In this document: positions 1,077 through 63,425 of the stretch, in pieces
Numbering within the stretch: position 1 is the first letter of the stretch
Layout: every line of letters starts with the position of its first letter
Assembly: GCA_951406725.2 (NCBI GenBank)
Contig: OX597828.1
Location: 73,842,001-73,906,000 of the forward strand
Source of the DNA: Octopus vulgaris
Taxonomy: Eukaryota
Reading direction: 5' to 3'
DNA: 64,000 nucleotides
Notes under the pieces: generated by a model
What the model saw: only the letters and a program-made list of their open reading frames with translations
Databases searched by the model: none
Told to the model about the DNA's origin: nothing
Program-made: the position numbers and the translations under genes

Positions 1077-1422
1077 ACTTTATTTAAAGCAGCAGAAAAT
1101 TCAACAAAACCTGTTACTCTGAGTTTCCCATTGCCGTTCGTCGGACAGTTTTTGTTAGAATGGAACCGATATGTGAATTCTATCCAGACTACATGAATTC
1201 TATCCAGACTATATGAATTCTATCCAGACTATAGTCTGGATAGAATTAGAATTCACATATCGGTTCCATTCTAGCAAAAACTGTCCGACGGACAGCAATG
1301 GGAAACTCAGAGTAACAGGTTTTGTTGAATTTTCTACCGCTTTAAACAAAGCACATTACTCTACCACTGGTATTTGAGTACTCTTTTTTCTACCTTGTTT
1401 CACATTTATGTGTTTACTCCGG
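1077..1422 (+). mobile_element. Fold-back non-autonomous PLE-type element with a hammerhead-like motif
   Basis: 1077-1231 is the inverted copy of 1232-1352, followed by a unique tail to 1422. Three 20-nt tandem units lie at the apex. TA tracts on both sides. Motif CTGT-CCGACG(A/G)-...-GAAA-CTCAGAG-TA-ACAG at 1281-1318 (+) and 1111-1148 (-). Confidence 0.7.
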
Positions 1423-1632
1423 TATATATATATGTATATATATATATATATATAATAATAAATATTAGGGAATAAATCCAAATTTACAGGGAAAAAATCA
1501 GATTTAGGATTAAATCCAATTTTATAGTAAAATATTATAAAATATTATTAGAGACAAAACCACTATTTTGCAAAACAAACAAGGAAAGACTTAATCAATA
1601 CATAAAATTTTAATAAATAGTCAAAAAAACCG

Positions 1633-1675
1633 CCACTACAATTGTTTCTTGTCTTGATCGACAATCTTCAGGTGG
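1633..1675 (-). ncRNA. Type I hammerhead ribozyme (inverted pLTR copy)
   Basis: Exact reverse complement of 8944-8986. Confidence 0.85.
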
Positions 1676-2561
1676 ACTTCCAATCTAAAATATCAATATT
1701 TTAAAATATAAAAATAATAATTTTAAAATAATTAAAGTATGAATGAAAAAATATAAATATATAATCCATATATAACCTATATATAATCCATATATAATCA
1801 ATATATAAACAATATATAAACTAAAATAAACCTATCAACAATTAAGTATAAAATATAAAATATAAAATATAAAATATAAAACAAAACAAAAAAATAATAA
1901 TAATATAATAATAAACTATATATACACCCATACACATATAACTAATTATATATAACCATATCTAACTACATACACTAAATCACACACCTATATATATATA
2001 TCCCTATACATACACATAAAAACGTCTAGGCAACTATAAATAAATAAAATAGCTAAATACTTCAACACAATACTTATTCATACTCCCACACACACACATA
2101 CAACCCACATTCAGGCTCTAGAAAACGGACATCACTTAAAATTATGAACGGAGAAATGGAATAAATGGAATTAAAAATTATATTCACTTGGTAAAACGAA
2201 CACTACTTAAAAATTATGAATGAAACAATGCAATAAAACAACAGACATCGCAAATAGGCACAAATTACTACGAATTCCTTAACAAACCTACCATGATAAA
2301 CCAAAACTCATAAAAACATATATTGATAAAATCTCCCTTTACTAAACTCTATAACATACCTATATAGCAATCCCCCTAACCTAAACATTCACACACAAAT
2401 ACACACACGTAAACCACACACCCACGACATATACAAATACCCACACCACTTACACATACCTATACATACATATAAACCTCAACATATACTCCAAAAACCC
2501 ACTCAACCCCACACAGACAAATAAGATCGGCTTTACGCCTCACCAAACACTGCAAGATATA

Positions 2562-59945: not shown

Positions 59946-60629
59946 AACATATATATATATATATATGTGTGTGTGTGTAAAGAAATACAAACTGGGACAA
60001 GAACACAAAACATTTAGAAGACGATACAAAAAGCACGGACGGGACATTCGAAGCTTTCAATCTTCAGTCAAGAACCGGATCATCCTCGCAATTTCGGCTG
60101 GTTAATCTTGAGATTGCTCCGATCTGGCCAGCCCCAAAGGAAAATCTAAGCCAAGCGCATTAGATGCCTTGGAAGACAGCCTCGAATGTATACAAAACAA
60201 GGACGGAAAAACGGACGATGTTACACGAATAAGAATACAAAAAATACGTAAAAACAATAATGATAATAATAATAATAACAAAAACAGGACGTCACAGACA
60301 GGCGTCTTTCGACAGGACGAGTGTTAGAAAAATGCCTTAGGGCAGAGAGAATAAATGTGTCTTGCCGCGACGACTGCTAAGCACGAAATCGGTCAGTCAG
60401 TCACGTGTGAGGAGAAGAGAGAGGAAAAGAGGGAAAGATGAATTAAGGAGGGGGAGAAGAAAGAAAAAAGGGGAACAAGGAACAAAGGCGGAGGAGAAGA
60501 GAGAGAGAGAGAGAGAGCGAGAAAGAGATAGATCAAAGTGGAGTGCAAAGTGTGAAAGGCAGAGAAATGTAAGTGAGGGGGGAGAGAGACAGTGTTATAG
60601 AGTCTCAAAAATGAGGGTGAAAAATTGTA

Positions 60630-60990
60630 TATTAATTTAATAACATCAATTTAACAACAGTGGTTTAGCGCATAAAAACCTGAGATTCAGTAAATATTAT
60701 TAATACACATATGAGAGAGAATCCACTAAAGTGGACGCCCTTACGCTAAAGAGAGATCCGCATGAGTCTCAACCACTAAAAATTGTTCTCAAGAAAAACT
60801 TAGCACACTATGAACGTAAGCGAGCAGGACAAATGAAAAATAACCAAAATATAGATTAACCCCATACAATTGTTTCACTGTTAATAAATTATGCAATTTT
60901 ACTTACACAATTAACTTGCAGATCATCAGTGGAGTCCGTCAAAGATATAATTTGTCGAACTGCACGCCATATATTAACACGAGGTCAAAA
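60630..60990 (-). mobile_element. Element with a hammerhead bearing a long stem II
   Basis: Minus 60933-60861 TCCA-CTGATGA-(~46-nt stem II)-GAAA-CAATTG-TA-TGGG. Abuts (TA)n. Confidence 0.75.
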
Positions 60991-61010
60991 TATATATATA
61001 TATATATATA

Positions 61011-63425
61011 TAATATAGTGATAAGAGTAAATAATTTCTATAAAGGCTTTTAAAAAACCCCAATTATTTACTGGTAGAATTCGGTATGTAAATATAGCCG
61101 ATTACTGGCAGGAACTTCTGTAAAGTTCAGTATATATATTGTATATAAGAAAAAAGGGACAGGCAAAACAGGTTGCTTGACCGCATACCGAAAAAATAGA
61201 AATAGCAGTCAAGAATGCTTATTTCTATCAAAGTTGGACTCCGGGCATGACAGACCCTGTAATTCACATATCCCTTTTTCTTATATACAATATATATACT
61301 GAACTTTACAGAAGTTCCTGCCAGTAATCGGCTATATTTACATACCGAATTCTACCAGTAAATAATTGGGGTTTTTAAAAGCCTTTATAGAAATTATTTA
61401 CTCTTATCACTATATTACTATTTGGATTTTTCACTCCCTTTGACAACCTAACTGTAGTGCGCATGGCAAAATTTTGGAGGGAAGATTTATGAATTCAAAC
61501 GTCTATGTAGGTTTAGCCTTTGCTCACTCTCTTCAAATATTTTGATGTCGCATGGTCAGAAGGTTTGAGGTACGTAGCATTTGATAAATCTATGATAAAT
61601 CTTTTTCAATGGAAAGCTGTGCTGAAGAAGGATGTGAAATACATTTGCAATATATATGAAATATATATCAAAAATATATGGAATATATATTCAATATGTT
61701 TATAATCCAGAAACATGATGTTCACAGATAACCGCCAGACTTCGTATTCGTTATCTATTCCTTCTGTTTTGCATATGTGAATTACAGGGTCTGTCATGCC
61801 CGGAGTCCAACTTTGATAGAAATAAGCATTCTTGACTGCTATTTCTATTTTTTCGGTATGCGGTCAAGCAGAACTTTACAGAAGTTCCCAGTAACTTTGA
61901 TACAACCTAACTGAAAAATAATGAATTCAAACGTTAGGTTTAGCCTTTGACTGCTATTTCAATGGAAAGCTAAGAAGGATGTGAAATATATTTGCAATAT
62001 ATATGAAATATATATCAAAAATATATGGAATATATATTCAATATGTTTATAATCCAGAAACATGATGTTCACAGATAACCGCCAGACTTCGTATTCGTTA
62101 TCTATTCCTTCTGTTTTGCATATGTGAATTACAGGGTCTGTCATGCCCGGAGTCCAACTTTGATAGAAATAAGCATTCTTGACTGCTATTTCTATTTTTT
62201 CGGTATGCGGTCAAGCAACCTGTTTTGCCTGTCCCTTTTTCTTATATACAATACATATACTGAACTTTACAGAAGTTCCTGCCAGTAATCGGCTATATTT
62301 ACATACCGAATTCTACCAGTAAATAATTGGGGTTTTTTAAAAGCCTTTATAGAAATTATTTACTCTTATCACTATATTACTATTTGGATTTTTCACTCCC
62401 TTTGACAACCTAACTGTAGTGCGCATGGCAAAATTTTGGACGGAAGATTTATGAATTCAAACGTCTATGTAGGTTTAGCCTTTGCTCACTCTCTTCAAAT
62501 ATTTTGATGTCGCATGGTCAGAAGGTTTGAGGTACGTAGCATTTGATAAATCTATGATAAATCTTTTTCAATGGAAAGCTGTGCTGAAGAAGGATGTGAA
62601 ATATATTTGCAATATATATGAAATATATATCAAAAATATATGGAATATGTATTCAATATGTTTATAATCCAGAAACATGATGTTCACAGATAACCGCCAG
62701 ACTTCGTATTCGTTATCTATTCCTTCTGTTTTGCATATGTGAATTACAGGGTCTGTCATGCCCGGAGTCCAACTTTGATAGAAATAAGCATTCTTGACTG
62801 CTATTTCTATTTTTTCGGTATGCGGTCAAGCAACCTGTTTTGCCTGTCCCTTTTTCTCATATACAATATATATACTGAACTTTACAGAAGTTCCTGCCAG
62901 TAATCGGCTATATTTACATACCGAATTCTACCAGTAAATAATTGGGTTTTTTTAAAAGCCTTTATAGAAATTATTTACTCTTATCACTATATTACTATTT
63001 GGATTTTTCACTCCCTTTGACAACCTAACTGTAGTGCGCATGGCAAAATTTTGGAGGGAAGATTTATGAATTCAAACGTCTATGTAGGTTTAGCCTTTGC
63101 TCACTCTCTTCAAATATTTTGATGTCGCATGGTCAGAAGGTTTGAGGTACGTAGCATTTGATAAATCTATGATAAATCTTTTTCAATGGAAAGCTGTGCT
63201 GAAGAAGGATGTGAAATACATTTGCAATATATATGAAATATATATCAAAAATATATGGAATATATATTCAATATGTTTATAATCCAGAAACATGATGTTC
63301 ACAGATAACCGCCAGACTTCGTATTCGTTATCTATTCCTTCTGTTTTGCATATGTGAATTACAGGGTCTGTCATGCCCGGAGTCCAACTTTGATAGAAAT
63401 AAGCATTCTTGACTGCTTTTTCGGT
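61011..63425 (+). mobile_element. Head-to-tail multimer of a 615-bp non-coding unit with an inverted 5' arm, in (TA)n (retrozyme or pLTR-like)
   Basis: Units start at 61272, ~61871 (internally deleted), 62233 and 62848. 61011-61271 is the reverse complement of the unit junction. Minimal CTGAAGA...GAAA-TA(C/T)A-TT motif in each full unit. Confidence 0.8.

What the first reader, a model, noticed from the sequence alone, without database searches (positions are those of the whole stretch)
1077..63425. A dense, polyphyletic set of hammerhead-carrying mini-elements that mostly target (TA)n
Seen: hammerhead folds at 1281, 1633/8944, 31654, 34475, 37316, 37846, 47757, 48140, 48520, 54068, 54570, 60861 and 61618, mostly in mutually unrelated 200-600 bp inserts bounded by TA tracts. 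Stem III is usually a palindrome (CAATTG, CTCGAG, CAGCTG, CCGG, CGCG, CG). Established: PLE pseudo-LTRs and retrozymes carry minimal type I hammerheads with palindromic stem III that are proposed to cleave as dimers. Inference: about one motif per 5 kb would imply a very large, probably under-annotated system of PLE-mobilised non-autonomous ribozyme elements that colonises and fragments TA microsatellites.
Basis: partly seen in the sequence, partly recalled or inferred. Interest (0 to 1): 0.8.

Follow-up and report, generated by a model that had tools for sequence, protein, structure and literature searches.

The report
Penelope ends and hitchhiking retrozymes
The window holds thirteen unrelated insertions carrying hammerhead-ribozyme motifs, mostly inside TA repeats: some are cut-off ends of protein-coding Penelope-like retrotransposons, and others are short non-coding tandem elements whose ends suggest they are likely copied by the same enzymes, so this is a known kind of system at high density, with one unusual tRNA-headed member.

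Summary
Real, but a mixture of known kinds. The 14 sites belong to 13 insertions. Nine families were searched directly and each is a high-copy repeat. A strict descriptor finds 5 motifs in the window against 0.07 in shuffles, and 17 in 400 kb of arbitrary genome against 0.4 (about 1 per 24 kb, not 1 per 5 kb). Four insertions are truncated ends of protein-coding Penelope-like elements (Hydra-, Neptune- and Poseidon-like). Four are 353-616-nt non-coding tandem retrozymes. Five are unresolved. Stems and the C3-G8/U3-A8 core pair covary between related retrozyme families. The retrozyme arrays carry the Penelope integration signature: two fixed 3' ends, head-to-head 5' inversions (46 of 79 insertions) and (TA)n targets. 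They were therefore likely written by a Penelope enzyme in trans rather than by local expansion. The 34475 family is not TA-targeted: it is the end of a Poseidon-like element that begins with a tRNA-like Pol III-type head, where most long copies start. Several window copies carry private core mutations. No cleavage, expression or mobilisation was tested.

The parts
1077..1422 (.). Family H insertion: inverted partial copy 1078-1182 (-, motif 1111-1148) head-to-head with direct copy 1235-1422 (+, motif 1281-1318); no ORF link found
1455..2524 (-). Inverted terminal repeat (with 3' tail) of a Hydra-like PLE; hammerhead 1633-1675
2508..4160 (+). 5'-truncated RT + GIY-YIG-type ORF of the Hydra-like PLE (full copies elsewhere 820-860 aa with DKT, CxCX5C, CxxC, CxH motifs)
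6848..9079 (+). Tandem 3' repeats of the same PLE; hammerhead 8944-8986; ends at TA tract 9080
31546..31783 (-). Family B: 5'-truncated 3' end of a longer element; intact minimal hammerhead 31654-31688; coding parent not found
33930..34110 (-). Family D inverted partial copy with tail
34230..34566 (+). Family D: last codons of a Poseidon-like endonuclease ORF, tRNA-like head (about 34337-34400; B box deleted in this copy), (AAT)n, minimal hammerhead 34475-34520
37270..37615 (+). Family C: truncated monomer of a 460-480-nt tandem retrozyme; hammerhead 37316-37364
37678..38009 (-). Family A: truncated monomer of a young 353-nt tandem retrozyme; canonical-type hammerhead 37845-37890
46249..47977 (+). 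Family J: 5'-truncated PLE with RT-thumb and GIY-YIG fragments (46284-47244) and hammerhead-like motif 47757-47803
48050..48411 (+). Family F: older element end (about 83% identity to other copies) with short 5' inversion; hammerhead 48140-48195; coding parent not found
48467..48698 (-). Family E: last 232 nt of a young two-ORF Neptune-like PLE; hammerhead 48520-48557 with U3-A8 core
53839..54410 (-). Family K: 365-nt tandem retrozyme with rearranged 5' part; hammerhead 54068-54110 (U3-A8 core; this copy has two core mutations)
54476..54670 (-). Family B2: abundant short element end; minimal hammerhead 54570-54604 with U at position 6
60604..60989 (-). Family I: hammerhead-like motif 60861-60933 with long stem II; one other copy seen
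61012..63424 (+). Family G: array of 616-nt monomers with 5' inversion; very minimal motifs at 61618, 62580, 63195

Best explanation
The window's hammerhead motifs sit at the ends of thirteen separate insertions, four of which are truncated copies of protein-coding Penelope-like retrotransposons and four of which are non-coding tandem retrozymes that were likely copied into TA repeats in trans by Penelope enzymes. Shown: the family structures, the coding parents of W, E, J and D, the tandem monomers of A, C, K and G, two fixed 3' ends per family, head-to-head 5' inversions, TA at the 3' ends, and stem and core covariation. Inferred: a PLE endonuclease nicks (TA)n; the reverse transcriptase starts at one of two sites in the terminal-repeat RNA, which gives the two 3' ends; it stops early (5' truncation) or folds back (inversion); a multimeric or circular retrozyme RNA gives tandem arrays in one event; each insertion leaves TA on both sides, so tracts are hit again and elements stack. 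The hammerheads would cleave mainly as dimers in tandem transcripts and need not be required for insertion. B, B2, F, H and I are probably ends of coding or non-coding PLE families whose parents were not reached.
For: Motif excess over shuffles (0 hits in reversed sequence over 1.39 Mb). PLE protein directly upstream on the same strand in 10 of 20 E loci and 5 of 55 D loci (4 distinct insertions), and in 0 of 30 A, 0 of 30 C, 0 of 20 G, 0 of 20 K and 0 of 20 H loci. Intact 820-960 aa PLE frames exist, the closest 97% identical to the window fragment. Tandem monomers 98-99% identical on many contigs for A and G. Two clusters of 3' ends in A (21 and 11 of 35), C (16 and 25 of 51), G (6 and 10 of 21), H (10 and 23 of 33), E (12 and 9 of 21), D (42 and 38 of 85), F (7 and 19 of 27) and K, matching the tail that PMC11167929 ties to two RT start sites. 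TA follows the 3' end in 32/35 A, 45/51 C, 17/21 G, 25/39 K, 19/21 E, 30/33 H and 37/51 B ends against 7.4% background. Inverted parts in 46 of 79 and TA on both sides in 52 of 79 retrozyme insertions. In the A/K/L234 clan 8 of 22 pairs change on both sides, including C3-G8 to U3-A8, with 97% of cells paired.
Against: No cleavage, RNA or mobilisation data. The retrozyme monomers show no blastn match to the terminal repeats of the coding families in the window, so the partner enzyme is not identified. A parent ORF could lie beyond the 1.5 kb examined or be too divergent for the seven proteins used. TA on the 5' side of non-inverted copies is only 16 of 33 (A 9/13, C 4/8, K 2/9, G 1/3), and no empty-site allele was seen, so part of the TA could be added or expanded after insertion. 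B shows only one 3' end cluster; F ends in TA in only 10 of 27 (25 of 27 in any dinucleotide repeat). In six families the outer end coincides with where I trimmed the reference. The covariation rests on 5 sequences from 3 families with a hand-set structure. PMC11167929 found its hammerhead dispensable for insertion, and the 2026 preprint found no cleavage in 8 of 9 retrozyme dimers.
Confidence: 0.75

Rival explanations
1. All thirteen are ordinary truncated ends of autonomous PLE families; the tandem arrays are terminal repeats amplified locally at the DNA level (unequal crossover), with no non-autonomous mobile class.
For: True for W, E, J and D. Most PLE insertions are 5'-truncated, and local amplification is proposed in bioRxiv 10.64898/2026.07.22.740005. 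Parents of B, F and H were not reached although they extend upstream.
Against: A, C, G and K monomers join head to tail with no coding sequence in 100 loci. Arrays end at the same two monomer positions on many contigs and often carry inverted arrays at the 5' end, which local crossover would not produce repeatedly.
Confidence: 0.15
2. The non-coding elements are mobilised by a LINE (RTE, CR1, Dong/R4) or by a mixed route, and the TA flanks are partly tails added during reverse transcription.
For: LINE-like fragments occur in the window (ORF list; not classified). TA at the 5' side of non-inverted copies is only 16 of 33.
Against: Two internal 3' ends within a circularly permuted monomer and head-to-head inversions are described as PLE features (PMC11167929, PMC8557442, PMC3846280), and the coding PLE families E and W show the same pattern.
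Confidence: 0.07
3. For family D only: the sharp 5' boundary comes from the small palindrome at the start of the terminal repeat (self-priming or RT stall), and the tRNA-like head is a passive relic, not a working Pol III promoter.
For: Palindromes at 5' ends of PLE terminal repeats and at inversion junctions are published (PMC3846280), and D has one centred just before the head. In loci not fetched with a D query, 14 segments start at -53 to +196 relative to the head and none within 10 nt of it. Rfam gives no tRNA match and ARAGORN none at its default threshold.
Against: A and B boxes with tRNA spacing are exact in 6 of 18 heads and absent from 400 kb of arbitrary DNA. ARAGORN at 70% threshold of 18 heads against 9 of 180 shuffles. 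Non-inverted copies also start at -6 to +7.
Confidence: 0.5

Closest known systems
Minimal type I hammerheads in PLE pseudo-LTRs (Cervera and de la Pena 2014, PMC4209133; parts 1-2 of 4 read)
   Same: [quoted passage not shown]
   Different: Different host and families; strict-descriptor estimate here about 1.2e5 motifs in 2.8 Gb against 2,000-9,000 per genome reported there with another descriptor.
Non-LTR retrozymes of animals (Cervera and de la Pena 2020, PMC7229834, parts 2-4 of 6 read; bioRxiv 10.64898/2026.07.22.740005, parts 1 and 3 of 5 plus passages)
   Same: Non-coding head-to-tail monomers with a type I hammerhead; A and K (353, 365 nt) are in the size range of the mussel repeats (350-390 bp); PLEs proposed as mobilisers.
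   Different: In the parts read, the link to PLEs rests on co-occurrence and terminal-repeat homology; two fixed 3' ends, 5' inversions and (TA)n targets of the arrays were not described there. C and G (460-616 nt) are longer. Circular RNA not tested here.
Hydra, Neptune and Penelope/Poseidon PLE clades (Craig et al. 2021, PMC8557442; passages and section 11 read)
   Same: W has the Hydra motifs and TA targeting; E has a CX2-5CxxC linker, DKG motif and TA targeting; D's parent has a Poseidon-like RT/EN and no TA targeting; partial tandems, inverted 5' copy and tail. Non-autonomous head-to-tail PLE derivatives (MRC1) are noted there in algae.
   Different: Clade calls here are by motif, not by tree. 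E has an extra upstream ORF of about 430 aa with no Pfam match.
Schistosoma Sm-alpha/Sj-alpha hammerhead SINE-like repeats (seen only through the review PMC6765202, passages)
   Same: Pol III-type promoter followed by a type I hammerhead, as in family D.
   Different: D carries a minimal PLE-type motif, is not in long tandem arrays, and is physically continuous with a PLE RT/endonuclease ORF that ends about 30 nt before the head.

Membership tests
Type I hammerhead ribozyme | Conserved core with stems I-III in type I order | tested here: met
   Met at family level for W, A, B, C, D, E, F, K; RF00163 32.2 bits for A.
Type I hammerhead ribozyme | Conserved core in families H, B2, G, I, J | tested here: inconclusive
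   H U4C with weak stem II, B2 U at position 6, G at most 1 bp stem II, I two copies only, J A9C in the window subfamily.
Type I hammerhead ribozyme | Compensatory changes in stems | tested here: met
   8 of 22 pairs in the A/K/L234 clan, 7 of them in the hammerhead including the 3-8 pair; stem I change between C subfamilies. Few independent sequences.
Type I hammerhead ribozyme | Self-cleavage | not testable with these tools
   Needs an in vitro assay.
EN+ Penelope-like element (W, E, J, D) | RT followed by C-terminal GIY-YIG endonuclease | tested here: met
   E: RVT_1 E 3.3e-8 and GIY-YIG E 0.0047, below cut-off. D: RVT_1 E 3.1e-9 and an EN similar to J's, E 3e-6. J: GIY-YIG E 3.8e-4, below cut-off; RT core absent from the fragment. 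W: no Pfam hit, assigned by Hydra motifs.
EN+ Penelope-like element (W, E, J, D) | Terminal repeat with hammerhead, inverted 5' copy and optional tail | tested here: met
   tail not examined for J.
EN+ Penelope-like element (W, E, J, D) | Clade placement by RT phylogeny | not tested
   No reference proteins were fetched; motif-based only.
Non-LTR retrozyme (A, C, K, G) | Non-coding head-to-tail monomers, each with a type I hammerhead | tested here: met
   G's motif is weak.
Non-LTR retrozyme (A, C, K, G) | Expressed as self-cleaved linear and circular RNA | not testable with these tools
   Needs northern blot or end-capture sequencing.
tRNA-derived SINE (D) | tRNA-like head with A and B boxes | tested here: met
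   A box 13, B box 9, both 6 of 18 heads; 0 in 400 kb (box patterns recalled). ARAGORN 10 of 18 at 70% threshold against 9 of 180 shuffles, 0 at default. No Rfam tRNA hit.
tRNA-derived SINE (D) | Copies begin at the head | tested here: inconclusive
   18 of 25 and 8 of 8 new head-reaching copies start within 40 nt; rough p 4e-4 and 2e-4; a palindrome at the same place could explain it, and most copies are truncated inside.
tRNA-derived SINE (D) | Pol III transcription | not testable with these tools
   Only 2 of 21 copies contain four T in a row against 71% of arbitrary 230-nt windows, but the copies share one ancestor.

The most novel reading that the evidence does not exclude
This genome records two steps not found in the papers read: whole retrozyme arrays written in single events by Penelope enzymes that start at two fixed sites just 3' of hairpins conserved across retrozyme families, and the birth of a Pol III-driven, hammerhead-carrying SINE inside the terminal repeat of a Poseidon-like element that captured a tRNA promoter, giving some 35,000 copies (95% range 11,000-82,000).
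Probability: 0.35. Interest if true: 0.65.

Novelty: new variant of a known kind. Interest (0 to 1): 0.45.

Why it matters
Which enzyme moves animal retrozymes, and what RNA feature it recognises, is stated as open in PMC7229834 and in the 2026 preprint. Here young retrozymes (99% identical copies) and intact PLE reading frames of at least two clades share one genome, and the arrays mark the expected RT start sites to the nucleotide, so the published in vitro PLE assay (PMC11167929) could test it directly. A tRNA-headed PLE terminal repeat would name the autonomous partner of a Pol III hammerhead SINE. The rest is a catalogue-level extension: roughly 1e5 hammerhead motifs, mostly dead or dispersed, which Rfam's cut-off misses.

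Tried and rejected
Whole-window Rfam scan: swamped by microsatellite hits to miRNA models; no hammerhead in the 150 of 174 rows shown. The repeat finder was dominated by microsatellites. The first descriptor lacked the extra nucleotide before stem II and found 2 sites. Linking family B to the PLE ORF in L112 was rejected: other B copies share only about 120 nt upstream and the ORF ends 730 nt away. Counts were discarded (duplicates, references containing TA) and redone. In one search the A/B-box pattern and the K and D patterns were faulty; the boxes and D were redone and K is taken. RNAfold of the D head gave z -0.77, no support for a stable cloverleaf; two of the three stretches were mis-oriented and are not used. 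Earlier scan findings: none returned. Lunse et al. 2017 is not held and is known here only through the review's reference list. Searches for a tRNA-headed PLE end or PLE-moved SINE returned no such description in the listings or passages read; Repbase, Dfam and subscription journals were not searchable, and supplements were not read. Families J, B2, I and the W terminal repeat were not searched genome-wide by DNA; they rest on copies found in fetched loci.
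Full report
Setting. The window is G000:C15:73842001-73906000 in a 2.8-Gb assembly of 227 contigs. It is about 35% GC and rich in microsatellites. An octopus-like animal is my recalled guess; no call names it. (TA)8+ tracts number 48 in the window and 261 in 400 kb of arbitrary DNA, so the window is ordinary in that respect.

Noticed in passing
window 48751-48990 (-): Short second copy of the W element's 3' end with its tail, stacked after family E in the same TA tract.
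   Followed up: partly
window 31815-32127 and 37039-37225: TA-bounded inserts with an internal inverted repeat and no hammerhead, probably PLE-type ends truncated past the motif.
   Followed up: partly
window 59967-60600: Unrelated repeat next to family I with hammerhead-core-like words in an order that does not fit type I; unresolved.
   Followed up: no
L188:4148-5458 (-): Extra ORF of about 430 aa upstream of and overlapping the RT ORF of family E's parent; no Pfam match.
   Followed up: partly
window 3060-3450: Asparagine-rich stretch inside the Hydra-like ORF, kept in frame in full copies; N-rich inserts are reported in rotifer PLEs (PMC3846280).
   Followed up: partly
L291, L292, L298, L305: Family D 3' halves fused at the (AAT)n tract to the same upstream sequence from another repeat; either a second family sharing the hammerhead tail or insertions into that repeat's tail.
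   Followed up: no
L240, L269, L125, L166, L167; L107, L315, L321, L017, L055: Further hammerhead families with long stem II not present in the window.
   Followed up: no
window 11333-12091 (-), 28281-28799, 51771-52262 (+): ORFs that look like LINE and Tc1/mariner fragments by recall; not classified.
   Followed up: no
   Followed up: no
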